A stretch of 42,313 nucleotides of DNA from Acidimicrobiia bacterium (GCA_029858875.1 JAOUEE010000001.1:1-42313), one strand, 5' to 3'; positions 5,393 through 36,560 are shown, numbered from the stretch's first letter. Notes: generated from the letters alone by a model not told the origin. Made by a program: numbers and translations.

Positions 5393-8300
5393 ATGATGCG
5401 ACGAATCGTGGGGGCAAGTCTGCTCCGTCCGACGCTGGTGCTGGTGCTGGCGGCGGCCGTGCTGGTGTTCGGTTTCGTGGGGTCGGGCAGCACCCAGGTG
5501 GACTCGCTTCCCCACTTCTCGCCGGTCGTGGTCGAGGTGCAGACCGAGGCGCTGGGGCTCTCGGCCGCTGAGGTGGAGCAACTCATCACCGTGCCCCTCG
5601 AAGCCGACCTGCTCAACGGCGTGGCCTGGCTCGACACCATCCGATCCGAGTCCATCCCCGGGCTGTCGACCATCCGGCTCACGTTCGAGGAGGGCACCGA
5701 TCTGCTCGAGGCCCGCCAGGTGGTCCAGGAACGACTCACCCAGGCGGCCGGCCTGCCCAACGTGTCGCGGGCCCCCTCCATGATCCAGCCCTTGTCCTCG
5801 GAGAGCCGGGTGATGATGATCGGGCTGTCATCGGACGAGGTGTCGCTCATCGACATGTCGGTCCTGTCCCGGTGGACCGTCCGGCCCTTCCTCATGGGCG
5901 TTCCCGGTGTGGCCAACGTGTCGGTGTGGGGCCAGCGCGAGCGTCAGCTGCAGGTACAGGTCGAACCCGACGACCTCGAGGCGGCCGACCTCACGCTGCT
6001 CGACGTCGTGAAGACCACCGGCAACGCCCTCTGGGTGTCGCCGCTGAGCTATCTCGAGGCGTCCACGCCGGGCACGGGCGGTTTCATCGACGGCCCCAAC
6101 CAGCGCATCGGCGTGCAGCACGTGTTCGCCATCGACGGCCCCGAGGACCTGGCCGCGGTCACCGTGGAAGGCGCCGATGGCATCACGCTCGGCGATGTGA
6201 CCACGGTGCTCGAGGACCACCAGCCCCTCATCGGCGATGCGCTCGTGGACGAGGGTCCGGGCCTGCTGCTCGTCGTCGAGAAGTTCCCGTGGGCCAACAC
6301 GGTGGAGGTGACCGAGGCCGTCGAGGACGCCCTCGTCGAGCTCGCGCCCGGCATGACCGGCATCGACGTCGACACCGAGCTGTTCCGCCCGGCCAGCTAT
6401 GTCGAACGGTCGATCGACAACGTGCAGACCACTGCGGTGGTGGCGTTGGTGCTGGCCATCGTGGTCCTGTTCGCCCTCTTCTACAGCTGGCGCGCGGCCC
6501 TGATCAGCCTGGTCGCGTTGCTGACCTCGCTCGCCGGCGTCGCCGTGATCCTCAACATCACCGACACCACCGTGGATCTGATGGTGATGGCCGGCGTCCT
6601 GGTGGCGTTGGGCCTGGTCATCGACGACAGCATCGGTTCGGTGGCCGCCCTGCGTCGTCCCGACGACGATGCCGATGAAACGGCGCCGCTCCCGTTCATC
6701 CAGCGTGCGGTCGTCAGTAGTCGATCCCCGATGGTGTACGCCACGGTGGCGATGGCGTTCGCCATCGTGCCGGTGTTCGCCATGGAGGGCGCCGCCGGCG
6801 AATTCCTCCCGTCCGTCGCACTCGCCATGGTCCTCACGCTGGTGGTGTCGCTCGTCATCACCCTCACGGTGGTGCCCGCCATGGGTCTGTTGTTGGCCGG
6901 CGCCGACGGGTCGAAGCTGCACCGGACCTCGCCGCTGTTGGCGCCGGTTGGTCGTCTCTACGGCAAGGTGATGCATCGCTGGACCAGCCGTGCGACCGGT
7001 GCGCTGATCGCCTCGATCGTGTTGGTGGCTCTGGCCGCGGCCCTCCTGCCGACCCTCGACAAGGAATTCGTCCCCGACTTCCGACAGACCGATCTCGTGG
7101 TGGCGTTCGACGGGGTGGCCGGCACCTCGCTGGAGGAAACGAGCCGGGTCACGGCGCTGGCCGGCGCCGAGCTGCGGACGGTGCCCGGCGTCGAGGACGT
7201 CGGCATCCACGTCGGTCGAGCCATCCTGTCGGACGAGACCGTCAACGTGAACGCCGGTGAGCTGTGGGTCCGGATGGACCCCGACGCCGACTACCGACGG
7301 ACCCTCGACTCCATCCGGGCGGTGGTCCAGGGCTATCCGGGCTTCGGCGTCCCGGATGCGCTGAGCTACTCGAACGAGCGGGTGGATGCCCTGCTGCGCC
7401 AGCGCAGCGACGACCTGGTGGTCAGGGTCTACGGCGAGGATCCCGTCGTCCTGGGCGGCCTCGCCGACGAGGTGGCGGCGATGGTGGCCGGTGTGGAGGG
7501 CACCGCCAACGTTCGTGCGGTGCACCCGATCCTGCAACCGACCGTCGAGATCGAGGTCGACCTCGAGCGGGCCGAGCAGTACCAGGTGAAGCCGGGCGAC
7601 GTGCGCCGAGCGGCGGCCACGCTGCTGTCCGGTATCGAAGTGGGCAGCTTCTTCGAGGAGCAGAAGGTCTTCGAGGTGGTGGTGTGGAGCCCACCCGAGC
7701 GGCGCAACAGCGTGACCGCCATCGAACAGCTCAACATCGACACTCCCAGCGGTGATGTCGTGGCGCTGTCCGAGGTGGCCGATGTTCGAGTGGCTCCCAA
7801 TGAGCAGGTCATCGAGCGTGACGCCGTGTCGCGCTACATCGACGTCGTGGCTGATCTCTCCGGTCGGGACCGCGATGCCGTGGCCGGAGACATCACCGAT
7901 CAGATCGAGGCTCAGGGCCTGCCCTTCGAGTACCACGTGCGCATCCTCGACGATCGCAGCGACGCCGCCGCCAACCAGCGTCAGGTGATCGGCATCGCCA
8001 TCGGGGCCGCCATCGCCGTCTTCCTGCTGCTCCAAGCCGCCTTCCGGAGCTGGCGTCTGGCCGGCGTGCTGCTCCTGGTGCTGCCTCTCGGTCTGGTGGG
8101 CGGAATCGTGTCCCTGACTCTCACCGGCGGGACCTACTCCATCGGATCTGCGGTGGGATTCCTCGCGGTCGGCGGACTGACGGTGCGGGCCGTGCTGGCG
8201 TTGTCCGGTCGGTACGAGACGCTCCAGCTCGATCAGGGAGTGGCCTTCGACCAGGACCTCGTCACCAAGGGGGCCCGCGAGCAGTTCACGCCCACGCTCA

Positions 8301-8518
8301 TCACCCTGGTCACCGTTGCGGTGGTGATGGCCACCATCGTGGTGTCGGGCGAGGTCGCCGGCCAAGAGGTGGCCCGGCCGGCGGCCATCGTGGTGCTCGG
8401 GGGGCTGGTCACCGTGGCCATGGCGGCCCTGTTCGTGTTCCCGGCGCTGTACGGGCGGTTCGGCGCCGCGGCCCAGCCCAGAGAATCGCTCTTGACGACC
8501 CGATCGGGGGATGTATGA
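5393..8518 (+). CDS. RND efflux permease, CzcA/AcrB superfamily, paralogue 1
   Basis: 1041 aa. The N-terminus has the typical RND pattern (MMRRIVGASLLRPTLVLVL...). TM4 carries IDD at residues 410-412 (D411-D412). Two large extracytoplasmic loops and a 12-TM layout are evident. GGGAAGG lies upstream of the ATG. Confidence 0.9.
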   Translation: MMRRIVGASLLRPTLVLVLAAAVLVFGFVGSGSTQVDSLPHFSPVVVEVQTEALGLSAAEVEQLITVPLEADLLNGVAWLDTIRSESIPGLSTIRLTFEEGTDLLEARQVVQERLTQAAGLPNVSRAPSMIQPLSSESRVMMIGLSSDEVSLIDMSVLSRWTVRPFLMGVPGVANVSVWGQRERQLQVQVEPDDLEAADLTLLDVVKTTGNALWVSPLSYLEASTPGTGGFIDGPNQRIGVQHVFAIDGPEDLAAVTVEGADGITLGDVTTVLEDHQPLIGDALVDEGPGLLLVVEKFPWANTVEVTEAVEDALVELAPGMTGIDVDTELFRPASYVERSIDNVQTTAVVALVLAIVVLFALFYSWRAALISLVALLTSLAGVAVILNITDTTVDLMVMAGVLVALGLVIDDSIGSVAALRRPDDDADETAPLPFIQRAVVSSRSPMVYATVAMAFAIVPVFAMEGAAGEFLPSVALAMVLTLVVSLVITLTVVPAMGLLLAGADGSKLHRTSPLLAPVGRLYGKVMHRWTSRATGALIASIVLVALAAALLPTLDKEFVPDFRQTDLVVAFDGVAGTSLEETSRVTALAGAELRTVPGVEDVGIHVGRAILSDETVNVNAGELWVRMDPDADYRRTLDSIRAVVQGYPGFGVPDALSYSNERVDALLRQRSDDLVVRVYGEDPVVLGGLADEVAAMVAGVEGTANVRAVHPILQPTVEIEVDLERAEQYQVKPGDVRRAAATLLSGIEVGSFFEEQKVFEVVVWSPPERRNSVTAIEQLNIDTPSGDVVALSEVADVRVAPNEQVIERDAVSRYIDVVADLSGRDRDAVAGDITDQIEAQGLPFEYHVRILDDRSDAAANQRQVIGIAIGAAIAVFLLLQAAFRSWRLAGVLLLVLPLGLVGGIVSLTLTGGTYSIGSAVGFLAVGGLTVRAVLALSGRYETLQLDQGVAFDQDLVTKGAREQFTPTLITLVTVAVVMATIVVSGEVAGQEVARPAAIVVLGGLVTVAMAALFVFPALYGRFGAAAQPRESLLTTRSGDV

Positions 8519-8982: not shown

Positions 8983-11900
8983 ATGATGCGGTGGGTGGTG
9001 GCGACCAGCCTGCGCTTCAAGTACCTCGCCGTGTTCTTGCCGCTGGCCATGATGGTGTCGGGTGGACTGGCTCTCCAGGGCGCCCCGGTCGATGTGTTTC
9101 CCGAGTTCGCGCCACCCCGCGTCGAGGTCCAGACCCCGGCGCTCGGTCTGTCGCCGGCCGAGGTCGAGCAACTCGTCACGGTGCCGCTCGAGGACGCGCT
9201 GAACGGGGTCGCCGGCCTCGAGACGATCCGTTCGAAGTCGGTGTCGGACCTGTCTTCGATCCTGCTCATCTTCGAGCCGGGGACCGATGTGATCGGGGCT
9301 CGCCAGCTCGTCCAGGAGCGCCTCGACGTCACCATCCCCACGCTGCCCAAGTGGGCGGCGCCGCCCGTGATGTTGCAGCCGCTGTCGGCCACGAGCCGGG
9401 CTATGAAGATCGGGTTAACCTCCGATGAGCACTCACTGATCGATCTGTCGATGACGTCGTACTGGCGCATCCGCCAGCGGCTCATGCGAGTCCCGGGCGT
9501 GGCCAACGTGGCCATCTGGGGTGAGCGGTTGGAGATGTTCCAGGTACAGGTCGAGCCGGAGCGTCTCAACGCCAACCAGATCTCGCTCAACGAGCTGATG
9601 ACGGTCACCGCCGACGCGCTCGACTCGGGCATCCTCCAGTATTCCGACGGAGCCATGGTGGGCACCGGTGGCTTCATCGAGACGCCCAACCAGCGGCTCG
9701 GTGTGCGCAACAAGCTGCCCATCGTCGGTGCCGACGAGCTGGCCCAGGTGGCCATCGCGGAGCGCGACGGCGAGGTGCTGCGCCTCGGCGACCTGGCCGA
9801 CGTGGTGATCGATCATCAGCCGCTGATCGGCGATGCCGTCATCAACGACGGGCCGGGTTTGATGCTCATCGTCGAGAAGTTCCCGTGGGGCAACACGCTC
9901 GAGCTCACCGAGGGCGTCGAGGAGGCGCTGGACGAGCTGGCCCCGGGCCTGCCCGGCGTGGAGATCGACAGCGAGATCTTCCGACCGGCGACCTTCATCA
10001 GCCTCTCGCTGAGCAATCTCCAGTCGGCCATGCTCATCGGATCGGTCCTGGTCGTCATCATCCTGTTCCTCTTCCTCTACGAATGGCGGGTGGCGCTCAT
10101 CAGCCTGGTGGCCATCCCGCTGTCGCTCGTGTCGGCCGCCCTCGTGCTCTACGCCCGAGGAACCACCATCAACGTGATGGTGCTGGCGGGGTTCGTGATC
10201 GCGCTGGGTGCCGTGGTCGACGACGCCATCATCGATGTGGAGAATATCGTTCGCCGCCTTCGGCTGCATCGGGCCGACGGTGATTCGGCCTCGACGGCCC
10301 GCGTCATCCTGGGAGCATCTCTCGAGGTGCGCAGTGCCATCGTCTACGCCACGCTCATCGAGGTCGCGGCGCTGGTCCCGGTGTTCTTCCTCGAGGGATT
10401 GTCGGGGGCCTTCTTCCGCCCGCTGGCGACGTCGTACGGGTTGGCCATCCTCGCCTCGATGCTGGTCGCGCTCACCGTCACCCCGGCCCTGAGCCTGATC
10501 CTGCTGCGCAACGCCCCCCTCGAACGGCGGGCCTCGCCGATCGTGCCGCCGCTCACCCGCGGGTACAACGCCATCACGACGAGGATCGTGCGGTCACCCA
10601 AGCCGGCGTACGCCGCGGTGGCCACCTTGGTGATCGCCGGCCTGCTCGTCGTCCCGTCGCTCGGCCAGGAGCTGCTGCCGTCGTTCAAGGAACGTGACTT
10701 CCTCATGCACTGGCTCACCCGTCCGGGCACGTCGCAACCGGAGATGCACCGCATCACCAGCGCGGTCAGCCCCGAGCTGCGATCGATCGACGGGGTACGC
10801 AACTTCGGCGCCCACATCGGACAGGCGCTCATCGCCGATGAGGTGGTGGGCATCGACTTCGGTGAGAACTGGATCAGTGTCGATCCGTCCGTCGACTACG
10901 ACCAGACCGTCGATGAGATCCAGACCACCGTGGACGGCTATCCCGGACTGTTCCGCGACGTCCAGACCTACCTGAAGGAGCGGATCCGCGAGGTGTTGAC
11001 CGGATCGAGCGATGCCATCGTCGTGCGGATCTTCGGCCCGGACCTCGAGGTGCTCGACGACAAGGCCCACGAAGTCGAAGACCGACTGAGCCAGGTCGAA
11101 GGGCTCACCGACCTGCACGTGGAGCTGCACGTGAAGGTGCCCAAGATCCAGGTCGAGTTGGATCTGGACGGTGCCGAGAGCTACGGGCTCAAACCGGGCG
11201 ACGTGCGGCGGGCCGTGGCCACGATGGTGGCCGGCGAAGAAGTGGGTGACATCTTCCAGGGCGGGCGGGCCTTCGACGTGCAGGTGTGGAGCACGCCCGA
11301 GGTCCGCGACAGCGTCGACGACATCGGGCGACTGCTCATCGACACGCCCAGCGGTGACCAGGTGCCCCTCGACGAGGTGGCCTCGGTGCGCATCGAGCCC
11401 ACCGACAGCTCCATCGAACGAGAGAACCAGTCCCGTCGACTCGACGTGAGCGCCAATGTCGGCGGTCGTGACCTCGGCGCCATTGCCCGCGATGTCGAGG
11501 CCGTGGTCGACGCCATCGACTTCCCCCTCGGCCACAGCGCCGAGATCATCGGGGAGTACCAGGAGCGCCAGGAGACGCAAGGATCGCTGCTGCGGTACTC
11601 GCTGCTGGCCGCGGTGATCATCTTCGTGTTGCTCTTCGTGTCGTTCTCGTCGCTGCGGCTGGCGGTGCTGAGCTTCGTCTGTCTGCCCGCAGCACTGGTG
11701 GGGGGCGTGCTCGCCGCCTGGTTCACGGGGGGAATCATCTCGCTCGGTTCGCTCGTCGGATTCCTGACCGTGCTCGGGATCGCCGCCCGCAACGGGATCA
11801 TGATGATCAACCACTTCCAGCACCTGGAGAACGAGGAGGGAATGACCTTCGGGCCGGCCCTCGTGCTGCGGGGCGCCGAGGAGCGTCTGGCGCCGATCCT

Positions 11901-12114
11901 CATGACGGCACTCACCACGGGTCTGGCGCTGCTCCCCCTGGTGGTGGCCGGCGACATCGCCGGCCACGAGATCGAGCACCCGATGGCCATCGTGATCCTG
12001 GGCGGACTGGTGACCTCCACCATCCTCAACCTGTTCGTGGTGCCCTCGCTGTATCTGCGCTTCGGCGGCCGGGATGGCGATCAGGCTCCAGCGGTGGCGG
12101 CCAGCGCCGGCTGA
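8983..12114 (+). CDS. RND efflux permease, CzcA/AcrB superfamily, paralogue 2
   Basis: 1043 aa. GGAGG lies 8 nt upstream of the ATG. TM4 has the canonical GAVVDDAIIDVENI motif; TM10 reads GIAARNGIMMINHF. Clearly paralogous to 5393..8518 along its full length. Confidence 0.9.
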   Translation: MMRWVVATSLRFKYLAVFLPLAMMVSGGLALQGAPVDVFPEFAPPRVEVQTPALGLSPAEVEQLVTVPLEDALNGVAGLETIRSKSVSDLSSILLIFEPGTDVIGARQLVQERLDVTIPTLPKWAAPPVMLQPLSATSRAMKIGLTSDEHSLIDLSMTSYWRIRQRLMRVPGVANVAIWGERLEMFQVQVEPERLNANQISLNELMTVTADALDSGILQYSDGAMVGTGGFIETPNQRLGVRNKLPIVGADELAQVAIAERDGEVLRLGDLADVVIDHQPLIGDAVINDGPGLMLIVEKFPWGNTLELTEGVEEALDELAPGLPGVEIDSEIFRPATFISLSLSNLQSAMLIGSVLVVIILFLFLYEWRVALISLVAIPLSLVSAALVLYARGTTINVMVLAGFVIALGAVVDDAIIDVENIVRRLRLHRADGDSASTARVILGASLEVRSAIVYATLIEVAALVPVFFLEGLSGAFFRPLATSYGLAILASMLVALTVTPALSLILLRNAPLERRASPIVPPLTRGYNAITTRIVRSPKPAYAAVATLVIAGLLVVPSLGQELLPSFKERDFLMHWLTRPGTSQPEMHRITSAVSPELRSIDGVRNFGAHIGQALIADEVVGIDFGENWISVDPSVDYDQTVDEIQTTVDGYPGLFRDVQTYLKERIREVLTGSSDAIVVRIFGPDLEVLDDKAHEVEDRLSQVEGLTDLHVELHVKVPKIQVELDLDGAESYGLKPGDVRRAVATMVAGEEVGDIFQGGRAFDVQVWSTPEVRDSVDDIGRLLIDTPSGDQVPLDEVASVRIEPTDSSIERENQSRRLDVSANVGGRDLGAIARDVEAVVDAIDFPLGHSAEIIGEYQERQETQGSLLRYSLLAAVIIFVLLFVSFSSLRLAVLSFVCLPAALVGGVLAAWFTGGIISLGSLVGFLTVLGIAARNGIMMINHFQHLENEEGMTFGPALVLRGAEERLAPILMTALTTGLALLPLVVAGDIAGHEIEHPMAIVILGGLVTSTILNLFVVPSLYLRFGGRDGDQAPAVAASAG

Positions 12115-13637
12115 GCGGGGTCCGAGGTCGACCCCGACCAGTGCCGATGGCCCGATCGACCGATGGTCACGGCCAGCACGGCCAGGATCACCATGGGCCA
12201 CACACCGAAGCGCACGGCCCAGGTCCGGCCGGTCCGGAGCTCGACGGTGCCGTGGAGCACCGCCTGCTCGGAGATCGCGGTGCGCGCCAGCACGTTGCCA
12301 TCGCTGTCGATGATGGCGCTGAAGCCGGTCGGCGCCGCCTGGAGGACCCAGCGGTCGGTCTCGAGCGCCCGCAGGCGGGTGGATGCCATCTGCTGGGTCT
12401 GCACGATGGTGAGCCAGTACGACGACCCATTGGTGGGATTCAGGAGCAACTGACCGCCATTGCCGATGGCGTCGCGGGCCCGGTTGTCGAAGAACACCTC
12501 CCACGAGATCGACACCCCGAGTGCGCCGACGGGTGTCTCCACCACCGCCGGTTCGGTGCCGGGCCTCACGTGGCGGGCCGGGAGGGAGTCCCCGGCGAAG
12601 CGTTCGATGAGGCCGCGCAGGGGCACGAACTCGCCGAAGGGCACGGTGCGCACCTTGTCGTAGCGGTCACCCCGGCTGCCGTCGGGGAGCCACACATCGG
12701 TGAAGTTGACGTTCTCGGTGTCGGAGACCTTGTAGAACCAGCCGGGCAGCAGCGGCGCGCCCAGCTCCACGGCCAGCTCCGACACGCAGGCCTCGGCCAG
12801 GGGCAGGGTGAACGGGCCGTCGATGGATCCCCGGCCGGTGCCGTCGACCGCGAGCGGGCACGAGTCGACCGGCGCCGGCTCGTCGATGATCTCGGGATTG
12901 ACGACGTTCTCGGGCCACAGCACCAGATCGACGCCGTCGTTCACCGCGGCCGACGCCGCCACGTGGCGTTCGAAGACCAAACGAGCCCCCTCGGCGCTGG
13001 CCCGCGTCCGCTGTTCGCCGCCGCCCTGCACGACGGCCACGTCGATGGTGTCCACGACCGTGGCCCTGGGAGCCACGACCACCAGAAGTGCGGCCAGGCC
13101 GAGCACCACCCCGGTGCCGATGATGGTGGGTCGGTGGCGCTCGGCCAACCCGGCCAGGCCCATCCCCACGGCCACGACCAGGGCGGTGAGCAAGAGGGCG
13201 CCGAACACCCGCACCGTGGGGGCCAGCGGCGCCTGGGCCTGACTCATGGCGAGAGTGGCCAGGGGAACGCCGCCGAAGGGCCACGACCAGCGGACCAGCT
13301 CGGTGAGCACCACGGCGCCCGGGAATGCCACTCGTCGCCATCGTGACGGAGGGGAGATGGCACCGGCGACCCCCAGCAGCGACGCGTGGAACAGGACGGC
13401 GAGCACGTATCCCGGGGGCGTGAGGTCGAACATCCAGAGCATCGACGGGAAGAACCAACCCATGCCGACGAGGGCCATGCGTCGAAAACGGATGCCGGCC
13501 ACCCGGGCCCGCAGCAGCGAGTCGGCCAGCGCGAAGCCGACGAAGGCCAGGGGCCACCATCCCCACGGGGGCATCGCGGCGGCGATGCAGAATCCGGCCG
13601 CCAGGCAGCGGATGGTGATGATCAGGCGGTGGGACAC
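12081..13637 (-). CDS. lnt: Apolipoprotein N-acyltransferase homologue (Lnt, CN-hydrolase domain) with Ser at the catalytic Cys position
   Basis: 518 aa. Multi-TM N-terminal half. WPEN (Glu) and YDKVRTVPFGEFVP (Lys) are conserved. The ICYE-equivalent reads ISWE (ATC TCG TGG GAG on the minus strand, about 12501..12512). The 3' end overlaps RND2 convergently by 34 nt. Confidence 0.8.
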   Translation of the reverse strand: MSHRLIITIRCLAAGFCIAAAMPPWGWWPLAFVGFALADSLLRARVAGIRFRRMALVGMGWFFPSMLWMFDLTPPGYVLAVLFHASLLGVAGAISPPSRWRRVAFPGAVVLTELVRWSWPFGGVPLATLAMSQAQAPLAPTVRVFGALLLTALVVAVGMGLAGLAERHRPTIIGTGVVLGLAALLVVVAPRATVVDTIDVAVVQGGGEQRTRASAEGARLVFERHVAASAAVNDGVDLVLWPENVVNPEIIDEPAPVDSCPLAVDGTGRGSIDGPFTLPLAEACVSELAVELGAPLLPGWFYKVSDTENVNFTDVWLPDGSRGDRYDKVRTVPFGEFVPLRGLIERFAGDSLPARHVRPGTEPAVVETPVGALGVSISWEVFFDNRARDAIGNGGQLLLNPTNGSSYWLTIVQTQQMASTRLRALETDRWVLQAAPTGFSAIIDSDGNVLARTAISEQAVLHGTVELRTGRTWAVRFGVWPMVILAVLAVTIGRSGHRHWSGSTSDPAQPALAATAGA

Positions 13638-13723: not shown

Positions 13724-14023
13724 TCAGATGGAACAGGTGTCTTCGTCGCGGCGGATCTCGGCCCGCACCTTCTTGCGCAACGTGCCGCGGACGTCGAGGC
13801 GGACGGTGCGGGCGAAGGACAACAGGTTGGGCGACAACAGCACCTTGATGCCGTCGCGCCGCACGGTCCTGTAGGGGGCGAGGTTCTTACCTCGGAGATG
13901 GGTGTCGACCGACACCTCGTAGCGGGTTTTGCCTCAACCCACCGGCGGGAGGAAGTCGACGGCCACGACACCACCCTTGGCCGTGATCGCGGCCAAGGCG
14001 TCGTCGGTCACTTCGAGCTCCAT
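13724..14023 (-). CDS. Candidate small selenoprotein (99 codons, in-frame TGA at 13934..13936 as codon 30)
   Basis: ATG at 14023..14021, preceded by GGGAGG at a 5-nt spacing. The reading is MELEVTDDALAAITAKGGVVAVDFLPPVG-[TGA]-GKTRYEVSVDTHLRGKNL...EDTCSI. This is the same frame as the 13724..13915 ORF in the track. GC3 is very high on both sides of the TGA, and a SECIS-like hairpin lies downstream. Confidence 0.6.
13895..13918 (-). promoter_or_regulatory. SECIS-like recoding hairpin
   Basis: Minus-strand RNA GGUGUC-GGUC-GACACC (13916..13901) gives a 6-bp stem and a GGUC apical loop. The loop G/U sit 27-28 nt 3' of the first base of the UGA. GAG/CUC can extend the stem across a CAU bulge. Confidence 0.5.
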
Positions 14024-14100
14024 TGCTGCCTCCCGGTCGGCTGTCACCATCAACCCTGTCACAGGCCGTGCCGTTCCCGTGGTCGAGACCGAGCGGCCCG

Positions 14101-14796
14101 TCAGGCTGCGCCCGGTTGCGCCGGGGTGATGAGGCGGGGCTGGAGCCGGACCACGTTCCCGATCGAGCCCACGCCCCGGATGACCACGTCGACCTCACCC
14201 CCGGGCACGACCCAGTCCGGCAGGTCGGCCGTGTCGCAGTGGGCCAACATCTCGCCCGGTTGGGCGGCGTCGCACAGTTTGAAGGCCAGGTTCACCGGCT
14301 CGCCGATGTAGTCGTCGCCCTCGAACAGCAGGGCGGTGCCCGAGGCCACCCCGATCCGAACCCGGAGGTCGGTGCCGGCGAAGTGGCTGATGAGGTGGGC
14401 ACCGAGGGCGATCACCGGCGTGGGCTCGACACCGATGACCATGGCGCCGTCGCCCAGCCACTTGGCTACACGGACGCCGCGTTTGGCCGCCACCGAGCGG
14501 GTGGTCTGGCGGAAGTCGCTGAGCATCTCGACCGCCGCATGAGGCCCGTTCTCGCGAGTGAAGCGGGTGAAGCCGCTGAGGTCCACGAACGAGAACGTGC
14601 GTTCCACGCTCAAGTGGGTGGTTCCCGTCGGCAGCAGGGCCGGATGCTCCGAGCCGGTGCCGGGCCGGGCGTCGGCCCAGTCGTGGGTGGCGGTGCCGTC
14701 GGGGGTACCGAACGGTGCCGCTCGGGTGCTCGACGAGGGGTCGGACCCGCGTGGACGGCGTTGGTGGGCGCCCCGGTCGTTGGTGCGATGGACCAC
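14101..14796 (-). CDS. Minimal class III adenylate/guanylate cyclase domain protein
   Basis: Catalytic-domain motifs FSFVDLSGFTRFT, KWLGDGAMVIG, RIGVASGTALLFEGDDYIGEPVNLAFKL. The ORF is open to 15102 but overlaps the Rpf-like gene there. The GTG at 14796 (GAAGGGA upstream) is the most plausible start; start uncertain. Confidence 0.7.
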   Translation of the reverse strand: MVHRTNDRGAHQRRPRGSDPSSSTRAAPFGTPDGTATHDWADARPGTGSEHPALLPTGTTHLSVERTFSFVDLSGFTRFTRENGPHAAVEMLSDFRQTTRSVAAKRGVRVAKWLGDGAMVIGVEPTPVIALGAHLISHFAGTDLRVRIGVASGTALLFEGDDYIGEPVNLAFKLCDAAQPGEMLAHCDTADLPDWVVPGGEVDVVIRGVGSIGNVVRLQPRLITPAQPGAA

Positions 14797-14876
14797 GCAG
14801 TCCGTCCCTTCGTCCGGCCCGCGGTCACCGGCCGCCGCGGGGGCGGCAGGTGACCTCGACCCGGTTCGTTCGCTCG

Positions 14877-15487: not shown

Positions 15488-16840
15488 TCAGTGATCCAGC
15501 AAGCGCGCAGCGGCGTCCCGACCCGATCGAATGCAGGCGGGGATGCCCACGCCGCGTAGGGCGCCGCCGGCCAGGGCGACCCCACCGAGGGCGTGGACGG
15601 CCTGCTCCACCTCCGAGATGCGATCGAGATGGCCGGGGGTGTACTGCGGGAAGGAGGCGGGCCAGCGAACCACCCGGACGGCGGTGGGCGCCGTGACCAG
15701 CCCCATGGTGCGGTCGAGGTCGGCCAGGAGGGCCGCCACCAGCGCCTCGTCGTCGAGGGCCAGCGCCCGCTCATCGCCGAAGCGCCCGGCCGAGGCCCGG
15801 ACGATGACCTGGTCGGCGCCCCCCAGGTGGGCCCACTTGCTCGAGGAGATGGACGCCGCGCTCAACAGCAGGCCGGCCGAGCGGGGGACCAGGAAGCCGC
15901 TGGTGTCGAGAGACATGGCCACACCCGATGTCGGCCAGGCGAAGGTGGCCATCACCACCCCGGCGTGTTCGATGGCCGCCAGCGGTGTGGGGCCGGTGAG
16001 GGGATCGAGCAGTCGGGCGGCCGATGGCGCGGGCACGGCGACGATCACGCCATCGGCATCGAGGCACCGGCGGCGGGTGCGAATCCGCCATCGATCGCCC
16101 AGCGGTTCGAGCGCGTCCACCGGTTCACCCGTGTGCACGACCGACCTCAGCCGATCCGAGAGCACCTGCACGATGTGCGCCATTCCTCGGGGGTGGGCGT
16201 AGAAGACCGGAGCCGACGGATCGCTCACGGTCGCTCGCTGCCGCTCGAGTGCCCGACTGAGGCTGGGTTCATCGGCCACTGCCGCGAACTGGGGCACCGC
16301 TGCGGCCAGGCTGAGGCGTTCGACGTCGCCCGCGTTGATGCCGCCCAGCAGGGGTCCGACGAGCCGCTCGAAGACCTCGTCGCCCAGACGGTCGCGCACG
16401 AAGCGACTCACCGAGTCGCCGTGGTCGGTCGAGACGGGTTCGGTTCGGCGCCGGTCGGCCTCGACTGCGGCCACGGCCTCGGCGGAAACGGCACCCGATC
16501 GGGCCAGCGCATCGGGATCGAGCGGCACGCCGAGCACGGCGTCGGTGGGTAGGTCCCACAGCTGGTCGTCCAACCAGACGCGGGCGCTACCGATCGCCGG
16601 CGAGACCAGCTCGTCGGCCAGGCCGAGCTCGGCGCAGAGCTCGTACGCCCAGGGGACGCGGGCCAGGAACGCGTCGGCCCCTTCGTCGACCTGGAGACCG
16701 GCGAAGGGCGAGGTGACGAGCTTTCCGCCGGCCTGCTCCTCCGCCTCGAGCAGCGTGACCTCGGCGCCGCGCCGGGTTGCCTCGAAGGCCGCGGCCAGGC
16801 CGGCGATCCCGCCGCCGATCACGGCGATGGTGCCGGTCAC
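15488..16840 (-). CDS. hemY: Protoporphyrinogen / coproporphyrinogen III oxidase (HemY/CgoX)
   Basis: GTG start gives [19 protein letters not shown] (FAD dinucleotide fold). The GTG overlaps the hemE TGA (GTGA at 16840..16837). The longer ORF to 17839 is a shadow of hemE. Confidence 0.85.
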
Positions 16841-21141: not shown

Positions 21142-23130
21142 GTGTCCTCGATGGTCGAGGTCGGTGCCGGAGGCACGAGTCAGGCCCGCTTCGAGCGCGA
21201 CGTGATCTCCGACACGCTCGCCATTCGCCTCCGACAGCTCGAGACCGGATCGGCGGCCCTGGTGTTCGGGCGCATCGACCACGACGACGACAACGGCGGC
21301 GATTCCTTCTACATCGGTCGACTCGGTGTCTGGGACGCCGACCAGGATCCGGTGGTGGTGGATTGGCGAGCGCCGATCAGCGAGTCGTTCTACCGCGCCA
21401 CCGCCAGCGACCCGATGGGCCTCGAACGACGGCGACACTTCGCCACACGCGGGCGCGAGTTGCTGGGCATCGACGACGAGCTTTTCGGAGACCTTTCCCG
21501 CTTCGATGGCGAGGCGGCCGACGGGTCCCGCCTGAAGGGTGAGGGGGCGCTGATCCGGGCGCTGGAGACGGCCCGCACCGGCCGATTGGGCGACATCGTC
21601 GCCACCATCCAGGGCGAGCAGGACGAGGTGATCCGCGCGGCCCTGCCGGGCGTGGTCGTGGTGCAGGGGGGACCCGGTACCGGCAAGACCGTGGTCGCGC
21701 TGCACCGGGCCGCCTACCTGCTGTACTCGCACCGATTCCCGCTCGCGGGTCAGGGGGTGCTGGTGGTGGGGCCCAACCGCCTGTTCCTGGCCTACATCGA
21801 ACAGGTACTGCCGTCGCTGGGCGAGGCAGGTGTCCAGATGGCCACGTTGGGCGACCTGGTCGTGCCCGACGCCATCGTCGAGGGCGTCGACCCGCAGCCC
21901 ATCGCCCACTTGAAGGGCGATCTGGTGATGGTGGACGTCCTCCGGCGGGCGCTGCGCCAACGCCAGCGGCCGCTGCGAGAAGACATCGTGCTGGGCTACG
22001 GCCTCCAGCGGCTGCGCCTCACGGTCGAGCAATCGGCCGACATCGTCACCCAGGCCCGGCGGCGGTTCCGCACCCACAACGCGGCCCGGGCCTTCGTGAA
22101 ATCCGAGGTCTTCGCGGCCCTGGCCACATCGGCTCGCGACGAGGTCTCGGCGGAGACGGTCCGGGAACGGAGCCGGCATCTGCCCGAGGTGCGCGAAGCG
22201 CTGGAGTGGATGTGGCCGGTTCTGACGCCGGCCCAGCTGCTGCACGACTTCCTGGGCGCTCGTGCGTTGCTGCGGGCCGCCGGCGGCACCGACGTGGCGC
22301 CCGAGCGCATGGAGACGCTCCATCGTCCCTGGTCCTCGGCCGAGGATGTGCGCTGGTCGACGGCCGACGCTCCGTTGTTGGACGAGTGCCGGGCGCTGCT
22401 CGGCTTCCGCCCGGGCCGGCGCGACGAAGACGAGGTGCGCACCTATGGGCACATCGTGGTCGACGAGGCCCAGGACCTGTCGCCCATGGAGCTGCGCATG
22501 CTCGACCGTCGGTCGTTGAACGGGTCCATGACCATCGTCGGCGACATCGCCCAGGCGACCGGTGCCTGGGCTCACGACGACTGGGAGGGGGTGCTCGAGC
22601 ACATCGACCAGAAGCGCCCTTCCCGCCGGGTGGAGCTCACCATCGGCTATCGGATCCCGGCGCCGCTCATGGACGTGGCAGCCAGGGCGCTTCGGGTGGC
22701 TGCCCCCGATCTGGCTCCGGCCCGATCGATTCGTGAGGATGGTGATCCGCCTCGGCTGCTGGAGGTTCCGGCCGAGTCCGATCTGGGCGAGGCCGTGGTG
22801 TCGGCCACGCGGTACGAGCTCGACCGCATCGAGCACGGCAACGTGGCCATCATCGTGCCTGCCTCTCTGGTGGTCACGGTGTCGGATGCCCTCGACAGGG
22901 CCGGCGTGAAGTACGGACGGGCCACCCGATCCGGTCTCGACCAGAAGGTGACCGTGGTGCCCGTTGGCCTGGTGAAGGGGCTCGAGGTGGACGCCGCCAT
23001 GGTGGTCGAGCCGGATCGCATCGTTGGCGAGGAGCCGCAGGGGGACCGCTCCCTGTACGTCGCCCTCACCCGCGCCACGCGGCGGCTCACCATCATCCAC
23101 CAGCAGCCGTTGCCCCCCGCCCTGTCCTGA
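21142..23130 (+). CDS. helD: HelD-type UvrD/Rep superfamily 1 helicase (RNA polymerase-associated)
   Basis: Walker A GGPGTGKT, VVDEAQDLS, C-terminal YVALTRATRRL. FYIGRLGV...VVDWRAPISESFY is the HelD-specific N-terminal region. HelD-like sequence continues upstream of the first canonical start to an in-frame TGA at 21037..21039. Confidence 0.85.
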   Translation: MSSMVEVGAGGTSQARFERDVISDTLAIRLRQLETGSAALVFGRIDHDDDNGGDSFYIGRLGVWDADQDPVVVDWRAPISESFYRATASDPMGLERRRHFATRGRELLGIDDELFGDLSRFDGEAADGSRLKGEGALIRALETARTGRLGDIVATIQGEQDEVIRAALPGVVVVQGGPGTGKTVVALHRAAYLLYSHRFPLAGQGVLVVGPNRLFLAYIEQVLPSLGEAGVQMATLGDLVVPDAIVEGVDPQPIAHLKGDLVMVDVLRRALRQRQRPLREDIVLGYGLQRLRLTVEQSADIVTQARRRFRTHNAARAFVKSEVFAALATSARDEVSAETVRERSRHLPEVREALEWMWPVLTPAQLLHDFLGARALLRAAGGTDVAPERMETLHRPWSSAEDVRWSTADAPLLDECRALLGFRPGRRDEDEVRTYGHIVVDEAQDLSPMELRMLDRRSLNGSMTIVGDIAQATGAWAHDDWEGVLEHIDQKRPSRRVELTIGYRIPAPLMDVAARALRVAAPDLAPARSIREDGDPPRLLEVPAESDLGEAVVSATRYELDRIEHGNVAIIVPASLVVTVSDALDRAGVKYGRATRSGLDQKVTVVPVGLVKGLEVDAAMVVEPDRIVGEEPQGDRSLYVALTRATRRLTIIHQQPLPPALS

Positions 23131-23269: not shown

Positions 23270-26200
23270 GTGCCTCTGTCTCGGTTCTCGGCGCCGGTGC
23301 GGACCTGGTTCGACACCACGTTTGCGGCCCCGACCGGCGCGCAAGCGCTCGGCTGGCCGGCCATCGCCGACGGTGCCCACACACTGATCCTGGCCCCCAC
23401 CGGTTCGGGCAAGACCCTGGCCGCCTTCCTGTGGGGGATCGATCAGCTGATGACGGCGCCGGTGCCCGACCGTGAGCACCGCACCCGTCTGCTCTACATC
23501 TCCCCTCTTCGGGCGTTGGCGGTTGACGTGGAGAAGAACCTGCGGTCCCCGCTCCAGGGCATCGGGCTGGCCGCCGGTCGAGCCGGGCAGTCGCTCCATT
23601 CACCCACGGTCGGGATGCGCACGGGCGACACGTCGGCCGATGATCGGCGCAAGCTCGTCCGTAACCCACCCGATCTGCTGATCACCACCCCCGAGTCGCT
23701 GTACCTGATGCTCACCAGTCAGGCTCGGGAGACCCTCACCAACGTGCAGGCGGTGATCATCGACGAGATCCACGCGCTGGCCGGCACCAAGCGTGGCGCC
23801 CACCTGTCGCTCAGCCTCGAGCGACTGGAGCAGCGCTGCACGTCGTCGCCCCAGCGCATCGGGTTGTCGGCCACCCAGCGTCCCCTCGACGAGATCGGCC
23901 GATTCCTCGGTGGTCAGGACGTGGCCGAGGACGGCTCCCTCAGCGCCCGGCCGGTCACGGTGGTCGATGCCGGCATCAGCAAGGAGCTCGACATCGAAGT
24001 GGTGGTCCCCGTCGAGGACATGGGTGATCTGGGCAAGGTCGTCGAACCGGATCCCGGTGGGTCGGCGGCCGGACCGGCCCGTCGCAGCATCTGGCCGTCG
24101 ATGCACCCCATGCTGCTCGAGCTGATCCAGTCGCACCGCTCGACGCTGGTGTTCGTGAACGCCCGCCGCCTGGCCGAACGACTGGCCACCAGGCTCAACG
24201 AGCTGGCCATGGGGAACGGCGACGCCGGGGCGCCGGTCCTCATCGGTGACCAACCCGATACCCGGGGCGTCACCCCCGCCGTCGATGACGAGACGGTGCT
24301 GGTGCGGGCCCACCACGGTTCGCTCAGCCGGGAGAAGCGGCTCGACATCGAGGATCAGCTCAAGAGCGGTCGGCTGCGCGCGTTGGTGGCGACCAGCTCG
24401 CTGGAGCTCGGGATCGACATGGGGGCGGTCGACCTGGTGATCCAGGTCGAGTCGCCGGGCGCCGTCTCGCGCGGACTCCAGCGCATCGGGCGGGCCGGCC
24501 ACCAGGTGGGCGAACCCAGTCGGGGCAAGTTGTTCCCCAAGCACCGGGCCGACCTGCTGGAGGCGGCGGTGGTGGTGCAGCGGATGCAGGAAGGCCTCAT
24601 CGAGGAGACCCACTATCCCCGCAACCCCCTCGACGTGCTCGCCCAGCACATCGTGGCCATGTGCGCCCTCGACGACTGGACCGTGGAGGATCTGAAGGTG
24701 GTCGTACGGGGGTCGGCCAACTTCGCCGATCTGTCCGACGAGGTGCTGGAGAACGTGCTCGATCTGCTCTCGGGCCGCTATCCGAGCGAGGAGTTCCGCG
24801 AGTTGCGCCCGCGCATCGTCTGGGACCGGATCGAGGGGGTGCTGCGGGGCCGCAAGGGAGCCCAGCGACTGGCCGTCACCAACGCCGGCACCATTCCCGA
24901 CCGGGGCCTGTTCGGCGTCTTCCTCCCCGACGGCACCCGCGTGGGCGAGCTCGATGAGGAGATGGTGTACGAGAGCCGGCCGGGCGAGACCTTCCTGTTG
25001 GGCGCTTCCACCTGGCGGATCGAGGACATCACCTTCGAGCGGGTCGTCGTGAGCCCGGCGCCCGGTCAGCCGGGGAAGATGCCGTTCTGGCACGGCGACC
25101 GGCCCGGCCGTCCACTCGAGCTGGGTCGGGCCATCGGTCGGTTCGTGCGCGACATCCGCGCCGAGCCGCAACCCCTGGAGCAACTCCGGGAACGAAACGG
25201 GCTCGATGAGCGGGCCGCCGCCAACCTCGTGCAGTATCTGGACGAGCAGGCCGAGAGCACGGGCGTGGTGCCCGACGACCGCACTGTGGTGGTCGAGCGC
25301 TTCCGCGATGAGATCGGCGACTGGCGGGTGTGCGTGCTGACGCCGTTCGGCGCGCAGGTCCACGCGCCGTGGGCCATGGCGTTGCAGTCCCGGCTGGGCC
25401 AGCAGTGGGGTGTCGACACCGAGATCATCTGGAGCGACGACGGGATCGTCGTGCGCCTTCCCGAAGCCATCGACGAGCTGCCCCTCGACGAGCTCCTGTT
25501 CACCGCCGACGAGGTGGATGACATCGTGATGGGCCAGTTGCCCAACACGGCGATGTTCGCGTCGCGCTTCCGGGAGTGTGCGGCCCGGGCCCTGCTGTTG
25601 CCCCGTCGGCGCCCGGATCAGCGGACCCCGCTCTGGCAGCAGCGCCAGCGGGCCAGCGATCTCTTGACCGTGGCCGCTCGGTACCCGACCTTCCCGATCC
25701 TGCTCGAGGCCACGCGCGAGTGCATCAACGACGTGTTCGACCTGCCCGCACTGAAGGAGGTCCTCGGCGATCTGGCCACCCGGAAGATCCGAATGGTCGC
25801 GGTCGACACCAATCGGGCCTCACCCTTCGCCCAGTCGTTGTTGTTCGGATGGATCGCGGTGTACATGTACGAGGGCGACGCCCCGCTGGCCGAGCGCCGG
25901 GCTGCCGCTCTGGCGCTCGATCGTGAGCTGCTGCGAGACCTGTTGGGGGCCGAGGAGCTCCGGGAGCTGCTCGACCCCGGGGTGTTGGCCGACCTCGAGC
26001 TGGAGCTCCAGCGGCTGAGCGACGACCGGCGGGCCCGCGACATCGACGAACTGCACGATGTCCTCCGGCTGCTGGGCCCCCTCGACCGCCATGAGCTGGA
26101 TGCACGATGTGTCGAGGACCTCGATGTGGACGCCGCACTGGCGCAGCTGGAACGAGACCGACGGATCATGTCGGTAGGGGTGGCTGACCGGGCCCAGCTG

Positions 26201-36372: not shown

Positions 36373-36560
36373 CCGCGGCCCGAGCGGCCGGTGAGCGTCG
36401 CGAACAGGAGCGGGCGATACCGCGGCCCGAGCGGCCGGTGAGCGTCGCGAACAGGAGCGGGCGATACCGCGGCCCGAGCGGCCGGTGAGCGTCGCGAACA
36501 GGAGCGGGCGATACCGCGGCCCGAGCGGCTCGCGCGCGTCGCGAACAGGAGCCGAGGACA
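36373..36560. repeat. 47-bp direct tandem repeat: three identical copies plus one degenerate copy (a further partial copy follows)
   Basis: The unit CCGCGGCCCGAGCGGCCGGTGAGCGTCGCGAACAGGAGCGGGCGATA occurs at 36373..36419, 36420..36466 and 36467..36513 (identical). A diverged copy lies at 36514..36560. The unit length is not a multiple of 3. Confidence 0.9.

What the first reader, a model, noticed from the sequence alone, without database searches (positions are those of the whole stretch)
13724..14023. Hidden candidate selenoprotein: a 99-codon gene with an in-frame TGA, of which the ORF track shows only the 63-aa tail
On the minus strand, an ATG at 14023 is preceded by GGGAGG at a 5-nt spacing. 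It opens the frame MELEVTDDALAAITAKGGVVAVDFLPPVG, which reaches a TGA at 13936..13934.

The same frame continues directly into GKTRYEVSVDTHLRGKNLAPYRTVRRDGIKVLLSPNLL...EDTCSI. That is the 13724..13915 ORF, whose nominal GTG start has only an abutting GAGG. Third-position GC is uniformly very high on both sides of the TGA, so both halves look translated in one frame.

Global TGA reassignment is excluded, because TGA ends well-supported genes in this window (lhr at 27758..27760, hemE at 16837..16839, RND1 at 8516..8518).

The pattern is a short strand, then KGG, a second strand, a Gly-flanked U, and a DGI.V.L segment. It recalls small HesB/IscA-like redox proteins in which Cys or Sec occupies this turn. 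That resemblance is my inference, not a database hit. No selA/selB/selD or tRNA-Sec gene lies in the window.
Basis: partly seen in the sequence, partly recalled or inferred. Interest (0 to 1): 0.85.

Follow-up and report, generated by a model that had tools for sequence, protein, structure and literature searches.

The report
Unannotated IscA-fold selenoprotein gene
This is very probably a real 99-codon selenoprotein gene that gene callers split in two, encoding a small IscA/HesB-fold protein of marine Acidimicrobiales with selenocysteine where IscA has its first iron-sulfur-binding cysteine; it is a solid new member of a known kind, not a new phenomenon.

Summary
On the minus strand there is a GGGAGG ribosome-binding site, an ATG at 14023, an in-frame TGA at 13936..13934 and a stop at 13726..13724.

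The selenoprotein reading is strongly supported.
- In 78 distinct homologues (38-90 % identical), codon 30 is TGA in 76 and TGT (Cys) in 2. It is never TAG or TAA, although the same genes' real terminators are TGA 43, TAG 16, TAA 16.
- A hairpin GGUGUC[GGUC]GACACC follows the TGA with a stem of at least 5 bp in 75 of 76 TGA forms. It is identical at the nucleotide level in 71. It fits every published bacterial SECIS constraint.
- The two Cys-form genes I could read encode the same peptide with other codons and have no hairpin.
- About 25 relatives carry a second TGA at the conserved C-terminal Cys. It is followed by hairpins with unrelated stems but the same GGUC loop.

A confident model of a Cys-form relative (pLDDT 93.6) matches IscA and SufA. 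The alignment places Sec30 at IscA Cys35 and Cys97 at Cys99.

The protein is a sub-threshold relative of NCBIfam NF041239, the "CC/Se motif (seleno)protein" family.

Not shown: selA, selB, selC or selD in this genome, and the biochemical function.

The parts
13724..14023 (-). Complete selenoprotein gene: 99 codons plus stop, reading M1...G29-U30-G31...C97-S-I-stop.
   Evidence: Translation is. GC3 is 0.86 and 0.91 on the two sides of the TGA. The full-length protein, but not the 63-aa tail, hits NF041239 over residues 1-85. The same architecture occurs in 76 distinct homologues.
14029..14034 (-). Shine-Dalgarno sequence GGGAGG, 5 nt before the ATG.
   Evidence: Read directly. Purine-rich GGAGG or GGAG is also found upstream of the ATG in L001, L002, L003 and L005.
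13934..13936 (-). In-frame TGA, predicted selenocysteine codon 30, in the context GGT-TGA-GG.
   Evidence: Codon 30 is TGA in 76 of 78 distinct homologues, TGT in 2, and never TAG or TAA. The terminators of the same genes are TGA 43, TAG 16, TAA 16.
13901..13916 (-). Predicted bacterial SECIS core: a 6-bp stem GGUGUC/GACACC with apical loop GGUC (13910..13907). There are 23 nt between the UGA and the loop.
   Evidence: The 16 nt are identical in 71 of 76 distinct TGA forms, and the stem is at least 5 bp in 75 of 76. The hairpin alone is -9.1 kcal/mol. It meets the published bSECIS constraints quoted. It is absent from the Cys forms. It is one of only two such hairpins in the window on both strands.
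13917..13933 (-). 17-nt spacer between the UGA and the SECIS stem (codons 31-35 and the start of codon 36).
   Evidence: The spacer is 17 nt in the window's clade and 14 nt in most relatives, so the loop starts 23 or 20 nt after the UGA. The spacer sequence varies synonymously.
13733..13735 (-). Codon 97, TGT: the conserved C-terminal Cys and likely partner of Sec30.
   Evidence: The position is nearly invariant across the family. It is TGA (a second Sec) in about 25 distinct relatives. It aligns with IscA Cys99.
13724..13726 (-). True terminator TGA.
   Evidence: No GGUC-loop hairpin follows the ordinary stop in any of the 47 single-Sec forms tested.

Best explanation
Positions 13724..14023 (minus strand) are one gene for a 99-residue selenoprotein. 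Translation starts at the ATG at 14023, behind a GGGAGG ribosome-binding site.

At UGA codon 30 the ribosome does not terminate. The mRNA just downstream folds into a small hairpin, GGUGUC[GGUC]GACACC, whose loop starts 23 nt after the UGA. This hairpin is a bacterial SECIS element. It should recruit SelB carrying GTP and Sec-tRNA(Sec), which inserts selenocysteine. These steps are inferred from sequence comparison. They have not been shown biochemically.

The product has the HesB/IscA (A-type Fe-S carrier) fold. Sec30 sits in the loop between strands 2 and 3, at the position of the first cluster-ligand cysteine of IscA (Cys35). Cys97, in the flexible C-terminal tail, corresponds to IscA Cys99.

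I think the Sec30/Cys97 pair is the functional site. It would either ligate iron, an Fe-S cluster or another soft metal, probably across a dimer interface as in IscA, or cycle through a selenenylsulfide. Which of the two applies is not resolved.

The gene belongs to an Acidimicrobiales-centred clade that is a sister group of the curated "CC/Se motif (seleno)protein" family NF041239.
For: **Recoding**
- Codon 30 is TGA in 76 of 78 distinct homologues that are 38-90 % identical to the window protein. It is Cys (TGT) in the other 2 and never TAG or TAA. The real terminators of these genes drift (TGA 43, TAG 16, TAA 16).
- Thirteen further full-length single-Cys forms come from protein searches.
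- The N-terminal 29 codons evolve like coding sequence. They are needed for the family match: the full protein gives E = 4e-7, and the tail alone gives nothing.

**SECIS**
- A hairpin with a GGUC loop and a stem of at least 5 bp follows the UGA in 75 of 76 TGA forms. Six codons, GAG GTG TCG GTC GAC ACC, are identical at all third positions in 71 of 76.
- The two Cys-form genes whose DNA I hold (L011, L012) encode EVSVST with other codons and do not fold.
- Independent support comes from about 25 relatives with a second TGA at the C-terminal Cys column. In 13 of these 25 it is followed by a hairpin of at least 5 bp with the same GGUC loop, built from 7 different stem sequences. The same test gives 0 of 47 after ordinary stops and 0.07 of 25 in shuffles.
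- Only two such hairpins exist in the whole window.

**Genetic code and lineage**
- TGA is the usual stop in the window.
- All genome hits are Acidimicrobiales MAGs except one labelled Acidobacteria.
- Another order of the same class, Actinomarinales, has selA, selC, selD and a divergent selB in all 84 complete genomes.

**Fold**
- The AF2 model has pLDDT 93.6. Nine of its ten best PDB matches are HesB/IscA-fold (A-type carrier) proteins, with probability about 1.0 and TM up to 0.63.
- Cys forms give weak full-length PF01521 hits.
- The hhalign register places U30 on IscA C35 and C97 on IscA C99.
Against: - No selA, selB, selD or tRNA-Sec is present in the window or in the 607 kb of related loci I hold. 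Sec competence of this organism is therefore inferred, not seen.
- The hairpin's stability is not exceptional against dinucleotide shuffles of this GC-rich sequence (z = +0.1 to -1.5).
- Within the first SECIS there is almost no covariation, because the stem is invariant. The peptide EVSVDT is also conserved as protein, so part of the nucleotide conservation is a protein constraint.
- Rfam has no match.
- Sequence similarity to IscA is not significant on its own (hhalign E = 0.047, probability 1 %; PF01521 below its gathering score). The Cys35 and Cys99 equivalence therefore rests on the fold match plus a weak alignment.
- The model is of a 41 %-identical Cys form, not of the window protein.
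- The function has no direct evidence, and the gene neighbourhood is only partly conserved.
Confidence: 0.88

Rival explanations
1. The TGA is a genuine terminator. The locus would then encode a 29-aa leader peptide and a separate 63-aa protein starting at GTG 13915, as public gene calls have it, or it would be a pseudogene.
For: Gene callers split the gene this way in every database entry. TGA is the normal stop in this genome. No Sec machinery is visible in the window.
Against: A real stop should interchange with TAG and TAA as the true terminators do (43/16/16). Codon 30 is TGA in 76 of 76 non-Cys forms. Cys-form homologues are continuous through this position. The family HMM and the IscA fold need both halves. 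The GTG start lies inside a conserved hairpin and has no comparable ribosome-binding site. A pseudogene would not keep this frame across sequences only 38-90 % identical.
Confidence: 0.04
2. The UGA is read through without selenium, by near-cognate tRNA (Trp or Cys) or by Cys delivered on tRNA-Sec, so the mature protein has no Sec.
For: The Sec machinery has not been demonstrated for this organism. Cys at this position is clearly functional in relatives.
Against: The hairpin has the loop type, size and spacing of SelB-dependent SECIS elements. The same loop recurs behind a second UGA on unrelated stems. That points to a dedicated trans-acting factor and not to leaky termination. If Cys were the intended residue, TGT or TGC would be simpler and is used by relatives.
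Confidence: 0.05
3. TGA is reassigned as a sense codon (Trp or Gly) in this organism.
For: Nothing specific, only that TGA reassignment exists in some bacteria.
Against: 17 of 21 well-supported genes in the window end in TGA at positions that match full-length family models, for example hemE, lnt, Lhr and the RND pumps. The aligned residue in relatives is Cys, not Trp or Gly.
Confidence: 0.01

Closest known systems
NCBIfam NF041239 'CC/Se motif family (seleno)protein' (Moor_selen_rel). The 2026 review lists it as a selenoprotein family first predicted in Moorella thermoacetica.
   Same: The homology is detectable and spans the full length: E = 4.1e-7, protein residues 1-85 against profile positions 1-84 of 91. 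All 13 clade members tested match. The proteins are about the same size. The Sec/Cys column coincides with the second position of the family's C-C/U pair in the alignment with the bona fide member P0041. Both families exist in Sec and Cys forms.
   Different: The score is below the curated cutoff: 30 bits for the window protein and 23-35 bits for the other TGA-form members tested, against 40. P0041 scores 78.7. The name-giving adjacent Cys is missing: the window has G-U-G, and the clade has G/S/A/T/N before U. This clade also has a conserved C-terminal Cys/Sec that P0041 lacks. Its taxonomic home is marine and estuarine Acidimicrobiales, not Moorella-type Firmicutes.
A-type Fe-S carrier proteins IscA, SufA and ErpA (Pfam PF01521 Fe-S_biosyn, the HesB/IscA fold)
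   Same: The predicted fold is the same, with top PDB matches 1x0g, 2d2a, 1r94 and 1s98. The order of secondary-structure elements is the same. Sec30 aligns with the first ligand Cys35, in a G-C/U-G turn after strand 2. Cys97 aligns with Cys99 in the C-terminal tail.
   Different: Sequence similarity is below significance. Only two of the three ligand cysteines are kept, because there is no C-x-C. Sec replaces Cys. There is no isc or suf gene context.
HesB-like selenoprotein family (TIGR01911, motif UxGP), known from Methanococcus, Deltaproteobacteria and Clostridia
   Same: Both are small selenoproteins related to HesB/IscA. The concept is the same: an A-type-carrier-like scaffold with Sec.
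   Different: There is no match to TIGR01911 even at E <= 10. The Sec context differs, G-U-G-K against U-x-G-P. The lineage also differs.
UXX-star and double selenoproteins (NF041114, NF041211, NF041212, NF047649; Haft and Tolstoy 2025, as cited in the review)
   Same: About 25 relatives of the window gene end in ...[T/G]-U-x-H-stop, so a second Sec lies three residues from the C-terminus and its SECIS extends beyond the stop codon.
   Different: The window gene itself has Cys (TGT) at that position. The relatives do not match the UXX-star HMMs.

Membership tests
Bacterial selenoprotein gene (SelB/SECIS-dependent UGA recoding) | An in-frame UGA aligned with Cys in homologues (a Sec/Cys pair). 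| tested here: met
   Codon 30 is TGA in 76 distinct homologues and TGT in L011 and L012. Thirteen further single-Cys-form proteins were found.
Bacterial selenoprotein gene (SelB/SECIS-dependent UGA recoding) | [quoted passage not shown] | tested here: met
   The hairpin is GGUGUC[GGUC]GACACC, with 23 nt of spacing and -9.1 kcal/mol. It is conserved in 75 of 76 TGA forms, absent from the Cys forms, and has the same loop as the hairpins behind the second UGA in relatives.
Bacterial selenoprotein gene (SelB/SECIS-dependent UGA recoding) | The coding signal continues on both sides of the UGA. | tested here: met
   GC3 is 0.86 and 0.91. Third positions vary most in codons 2-29. The family HMM spans both halves.
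Bacterial selenoprotein gene (SelB/SECIS-dependent UGA recoding) | The genome encodes tRNA-Sec (selC), SelA, SelB and SelD. | not testable with these tools
   None of these is in the window or in the 607 kb of related loci held. The rest of the genome is not available. There is indirect support only: Actinomarinales, in the same class, have the machinery.
Bacterial selenoprotein gene (SelB/SECIS-dependent UGA recoding) | Selenium is incorporated into the full-length product. | not testable with these tools
   This needs 75Se labelling or mass spectrometry.
NCBIfam NF041239, CC/Se motif family (seleno)protein | The HMM score reaches the curated cutoff of 40 bits. | tested here: not met
   The window protein scores 30.0 bits. 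The other TGA-form clade members tested score 23-35. The Cys form P0008 scores 40.1 and the bona fide member P0041 scores 78.7.
NCBIfam NF041239, CC/Se motif family (seleno)protein | An adjacent Cys-Cys or Cys-Sec motif. | tested here: not met
   The window has Gly29-Sec30-Gly31. The residue before U in the clade is G, S, A, T or N. P0041 has G-C-C-G.
NCBIfam NF041239, CC/Se motif family (seleno)protein | Homology over the whole domain. | tested here: met
   E = 4.1e-7, residues 1-85 against profile positions 1-84 of 91. All 13 of 13 members match.
HesB/IscA fold (A-type carrier, Pfam PF01521) | The three-dimensional fold. | tested here: met
   The AF2 model of Cys form P0006 has pLDDT 93.6. 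Foldseek gives 1x0g at E = 2e-5 and TM 0.60-0.63, and also finds SufA, IscA, HI1723, Aq_1857 and DsrR. The model is of a 41 %-identical relative.
HesB/IscA fold (A-type carrier, Pfam PF01521) | The Pfam gathering score. | tested here: not met
   The window protein gives no hit. Cys forms score 14-18.7 bits against 26.3.
HesB/IscA fold (A-type carrier, Pfam PF01521) | Three conserved ligand cysteines (C35, C99 and C101 in E. coli IscA). | tested here: not met
   Only two thiol or selenol positions are conserved, U/C30 and C/U97. There is no C-x-C.
HesB-like selenoprotein TIGR01911 | An HMM match and the UxGP motif. | tested here: not met
   There is no hit at E <= 10. The motif here is G-U-G-K.

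The most novel reading that the evidence does not exclude
This is an uncharacterised, Acidimicrobiales-wide family of A-type-carrier-fold proteins in which selenium replaces sulfur at the metal or Fe-S ligand positions. In many relatives this happens at both positions, through two separately recoded UGAs. The family would then be a selenol-ligated iron, Fe-S or soft-metal carrier, or a diselenide or selenenylsulfide redox switch built on an IscA scaffold. Its biochemistry would differ from the known HesB-like and CC/Se selenoproteins.
Probability: 0.3. Interest if true: 0.65.

Novelty: new member of a known kind. Interest (0 to 1): 0.45.

Why it matters
- **Annotation.** Every public copy I found is called as a 29-aa plus a 61-64-aa hypothetical protein, or as the tail alone. 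The real product is an approximately 100-aa selenoprotein. At least 76 distinct sequences are affected. Most come from marine and estuarine Acidimicrobiales, an abundant but poorly characterised group.
- **Sec use in this lineage.** The family adds to the recent evidence that the class Acidimicrobiia uses selenocysteine. Two independent sites yield a lineage-specific SECIS consensus: a short GC-rich stem with a GGUC loop that starts 17-23 nt after the UGA. This consensus could be used to find more selenoproteins in these genomes.
- **Structure and function.** The fold assignment links the "CC/Se motif" family to the IscA/HesB fold. It also identifies a two-residue active site (U/C30 and C/U97) that can be tested.
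- **Limit.** The recoding mechanism is textbook and the family is a relative of a curated one, so this is a well-supported addition and not a surprise.

Tried and rejected
- **Rfam.** Searches at the gathering threshold and at E <= 10 gave no SECIS or other family. This is expected, because bacterial SECIS elements are poorly represented in Rfam.
- **Hairpin energy against shuffles.** The result was not significant. I therefore do not use thermodynamic stability as evidence.
- **A second hairpin that includes the UGA itself.** GGUGGGUU...AACCCGCU folds in the window, but it is not conserved in relatives such as L006. Rejected.
- **PDB sequence search with the family profile.** Only a chance hit at E = 0.67.
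- **Pfam on the window protein.** Nothing meaningful.
- **Exhaustive representative search with edited or stop-containing sequences.** I ran it with the Cys forms instead.
- **Other read-through TGAs in the window.** The scan found only an ordinary gene junction at 19985.
- **tRNA-Sec and sel genes in all held DNA.** None found. This is uninformative, because the held DNA is short fragments.
- **Gene neighbourhood as a clue to function.** lnt lies downstream in about 14 of 37 loci, and an Rv2466c-like thiol reductase in 8. This is too inconsistent to assign a pathway.
- **Literature.** The GOS paper and Peng 2016 describe nothing like this clade. Haft and Tolstoy 2025 was not available. PF28096, which is precomputed on the Cys forms, is not in the local Pfam copy or in any held paper, so its description is unknown to me.
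- **Model coordinates.** They are not exposed, so the Sec30-Cys97 distance could not be measured.

Full report
**1. The observation**

Reading the minus strand gives GGGAGG at 14034..14029, a 5-nt spacer and ATG at 14023..14021. Twenty-nine sense codons follow (MELEVTDDALAAITAKGGVVAVDFLPPVG). TGA lies at 13936..13934. Sixty-nine more sense codons follow (GKTRYEVSVDTHL...RRDEDTCSI), and TGA at 13726..13724 ends the frame.

The mechanical ORF list contains only the 63-aa tail, 13724..13915, which starts at a GTG. Third-position GC is 0.86 before and 0.91 after the TGA. The window has 69 % GC.

TGA terminates 17 of 21 well-supported genes, including hemE, lhr, lnt and both RND pumps. The code is therefore standard. 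The window has no tRNA gene. None of its 20 largest genes matches SelA, SelB or SelD.

**2. The split is conserved, and codon 30 behaves like a sense codon**

A protein search returned only 61-64-aa entries. Their contigs show the same architecture: a 29-aa ORF called just upstream, an in-frame TGA, then the tail.

I then scanned species-representative genomes and metagenomes with the family alignment. Together with the window this gave 93 loci and 78 distinct protein sequences, 38-90 % identical to the window protein.

Codon 30 is TGA in 76 of these and TGT in 2 (L011 and L012, DFIPPVGCGK). It is never TAG or TAA. The real terminators of the same genes are TGA 43, TAG 16 and TAA 16.

Thirteen further full-length single-Cys forms came from the protein databases: P0006-P0010 (the proteins of L012 and L011 among them), P0025-P0031 and P0036, reading VGCGK, ACGG or GCGG.

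Among five orthologues, the invariant columns in codons 2-29 number 14, 16 and 6 of 28 at codon positions 1, 2 and 3. That is the pattern of translated sequence.

The joined protein matches NCBIfam NF041239 across residues 1-85. The tail alone matches nothing.

**3. A SECIS element, with an independent second example**

The six codons GAG GTG TCG GTC GAC ACC lie 14 or 17 nt after the TGA. They are identical, third positions included, in 71 of 76 distinct TGA forms.

Four of the five exceptions change only the outermost stem pair: G-C to G-U twice, and to a mismatch twice. The fifth changes the loop to CGUG.

The sequence folds into GGUGUC[GGUC]GACACC. In the window this is 13916..13901, with the loop at 13910..13907.

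It satisfies all four constraints of the published bacterial SECIS model, quoted from PMC13188914:
- loop of 3-9 nt (here 4);
- stem of 4-16 bp (here 6);
- G in the first two loop positions (here GG, then U);
- 16-37 nt between UGA and loop (here 23, and 20 in most relatives), with MFE <= -7.5 kcal/mol (here -9.1 for the hairpin alone).

From my own knowledge, GGUC is also the apical loop of the E. coli fdhF SECIS.

The two Cys-form genes encode the equivalent peptide EVSVST with different codons, GAAGTGTCTGTATCTACA and GAGGTTAGCGTTAGCACT. They do not form the hairpin.

In the whole window, on both strands, only two hairpins have at least 6 bp around a GGTC loop. One of them is this one.

There are caveats. 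The hairpin's energy is not unusual against shuffles (z = +0.1 to -1.5). Rfam finds nothing. Because the stem is almost invariant, it shows no covariation of its own.

An unplanned finding fills that gap. About 25 distinct relatives have a second TGA exactly at the conserved C-terminal Cys column. For example...EHKHQPT-TGA-RH-stop aligns with ...EHQHGPGCRH-stop.

Downstream of that second TGA, running past the stop codon, 13 of the 25 have a perfect stem of at least 5 bp around a GGUC loop that starts 17-21 nt after the TGA. These are built from seven different stem sequences:
- CGGGCC/GGCCCG
- AGCCCC/GGGGCU
- GAGCCCC/GGGGCUC
- GCCCC/GGGGC
- AGCGCGCC/GGCGCGCU
- CGGCCC/GGGCCG
- CGGACC/GGUCCG

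Most of the others have hairpins with GGUG, GUUG or GUC loops. The same test gives 0 of 47 after the ordinary stop of single-TGA forms, and 0.07 of 25 in shuffles.

A pair count over the distinct hairpins gives 97.6 % paired cells and 4 of 6 pairs changed on both sides. Shifting the register drops pairing to 29-49 %. That set was selected for forming hairpins, so the 13/25 against 0/47 contrast is the unbiased number.

Two unrelated sites therefore carry the same loop on covarying stems. This is what recognition by one trans-acting factor, SelB, predicts.

**4. What the protein is**

The exhaustive profile search found only 20 representative clusters at E <= 0.001 among 1.84 billion proteins. 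The family is small.

An AlphaFold model of the Cys form P0006 (41 % identical to the window protein, 37-sequence alignment) is confident, with pLDDT 93.6 and pTM 0.83. Its topology is strand-helix-strand-loop-strand and onward.

Nine of its ten best PDB matches are HesB/IscA-fold (A-type carrier) proteins:
- IscA with a [2Fe-2S] cluster (1x0g, E = 2e-5, TM 0.60-0.63);
- HI1723;
- SufA (2d2a);
- E. coli IscA (1r94, 1s98);
- Aq_1857;
- DsrR.

The remaining one, at rank 8, is a YneR-containing integrative model.

The weak sequence signals agree with this. Four Cys forms hit PF01521 full-length at E = 0.002-0.06. Single members hit ErpA and NfuA.

A profile alignment to E. coli IscA, whose sequence I verified against 1r94 and 1s98, runs end to end. 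It places U/C30 on Cys35 and C97 on Cys99. It is not significant by itself (E = 0.047).

Only these two thiol or selenol positions are conserved in the family. Either position can be Sec. Many relatives carry an H-x-H-x(2-3)-[C/U]-x-H tail, which looks like a metal site. The window's clade has RRDEDTCSI instead.

I infer that Sec30 and Cys97 form the active site, either as ligands for a metal or Fe-S cluster or as a selenenylsulfide pair. This is inference, and no assay or coordinate measurement was possible.

**5. Relation to known families**

NF041239, the "CC/Se motif family (seleno)protein", is listed in the 2026 review as a selenoprotein family first predicted in Moorella. It is the only curated family that matches.

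All TGA-form members tested score 23-35 bits against a cutoff of 40. The Cys form P0008 scores 40.1. The CC-containing P0041 scores 78.7.

The window protein lacks the adjacent Cys: it reads G-U-G. MAFFT aligns U with the second Cys of P0041's GCCG.

It does not match TIGR01911, the classical HesB-like selenoprotein with motif UxGP.

The Cys forms carry a precomputed PF28096, which I could not look up.

I therefore file the gene as a homologue and sister clade of NF041239 with a HesB/IscA fold, not as a member under the curated definition. C-terminal U-x-x-stop selenoproteins have precedent (the UXX-star families), but the relatives here do not match those models.

**6. Organism and context**

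Seven of the eight genome hits are labelled Acidimicrobiales MAGs, and one is labelled Acidobacteria. The metagenome records whose titles give a source are marine.

A 2026 preprint reports selC, selA, selD and a divergent selB, with about five selenoproteins per genome, in all 84 complete Actinomarina genomes, which belong to the same class. Actinobacteria were already known as a selenoprotein-rich phylum. This makes Sec competence plausible but does not show it for this genome.

Neighbours in the window are lnt directly downstream (12081..13637) and a weak cyclase-domain ORF upstream (14101..14802). Further out are rpf, hemY, hemE, and two CusA/CzcA-type RND genes beyond lnt.

Across loci, lnt is downstream in about 14 of 37. 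An Rv2466c-like, DsbA-fold thiol reductase is downstream in 8 loci of one clade. That is suggestive of thiol redox, but it is not general.

**7. Verdict**

This is an unannotated selenoprotein gene with a recognisable SECIS element, encoding an IscA-fold protein with Sec at the first ligand position.

The recoding mechanism is the standard bacterial one, and the family is a relative of a curated (seleno)protein family. Novelty is therefore "new member of a known kind". The extras are worth recording: a clade-specific G-U-G site, the fold assignment, and double-Sec relatives with a 3'-UTR SECIS.

Confidence that the UGA encodes Sec is about 0.88. The main gap is the unseen Sec machinery. The biochemical role is open.

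Noticed in passing
L020, L027, L040, L041, L047, L054, L057, L062-L067, L069-L072, L074, L076, L077, L079, L081, L082, L088, L092 (for example L040 around 2989 and the C-terminal TGA 204 nt further on): About 25 distinct relatives have a second in-frame TGA at the conserved C-terminal Cys column (...H-x-H-x-x-[T/G]-U-x-H-stop). It is followed by a hairpin that runs into the 3' UTR, with varying stems and a GGUC, GGUG or GUUG loop. They look like double selenoproteins of the 'UXX-star' type. The window gene has TGT there.
   Followed up: yes
window 13913..13915 (minus strand), and the database entries P0001-P0005, P0011-P0024, P0032-P0043: Public gene calls for this family start at the GTG (or an ATG) inside the SECIS stem, giving 'MSVDT...' proteins of 55-69 aa. 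Often a separate 29-aa ORF is called upstream. This is a systematic mis-annotation across JGI, ENA, NCBI and Logan records.
   Followed up: yes
L034 5403..5993 (+), and 7 further loci of the DFISAVGUGKVAEVSVDT clade: In one clade the gene directly downstream, about 355 nt after the Sec codon on the same strand, is an Rv2466c-like mycothiol-dependent reductase (PF22234, E = 3e-40). This is a possible thiol-redox partner. It is not present in the window.
   Followed up: partly
window 5393..8518 (+) and 8983..12114 (+): Two large CusA/CzcA-type heavy-metal-efflux RND permease genes lie in tandem, convergent with lnt and the selenoprotein gene (TIGR00914 at 350 and 589 bits, both below the 701-bit cutoff). 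I did not examine whether metal efflux relates to the selenoprotein.
   Followed up: no
window 14101..14802 (-): The ORF directly upstream of the selenoprotein gene has only a weak adenylate/guanylate-cyclase catalytic-domain match (PF00211, 25.3 bits, E = 1.4e-5) and no NCBIfam hit. Its true start and function are unclear.
   Followed up: partly
L008 (JADFOM010000102.1): This MAG is labelled 'Acidobacteria bacterium', but its copy of the gene closely resembles that of the metagenome locus L004, and all other genome hits are Acidimicrobiales. This may be a mis-binned or mislabelled contig.
   Followed up: no
window 21142..23130 (+) and 23270..27760 (+): A HelD/HelR-type RNA-polymerase recycling ATPase gene lies immediately upstream of the 1496-aa Lhr-type helicase gene, on the same strand.
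   Followed up: no
window 36485..40120 (+): A 1211-aa ORF partly matches a TOMM-system kinase/cyclase fusion protein (TIGR03903, E = 3e-55, below cutoff) and carries SARP/TPR-like regions.
   Followed up: no
window 13920..13943 (-): A second predicted hairpin, GGUGGGUU...AACCCGCU, encloses the UGA itself in the window sequence. It is not conserved in relatives such as L006, so it is probably incidental.
   Followed up: yes
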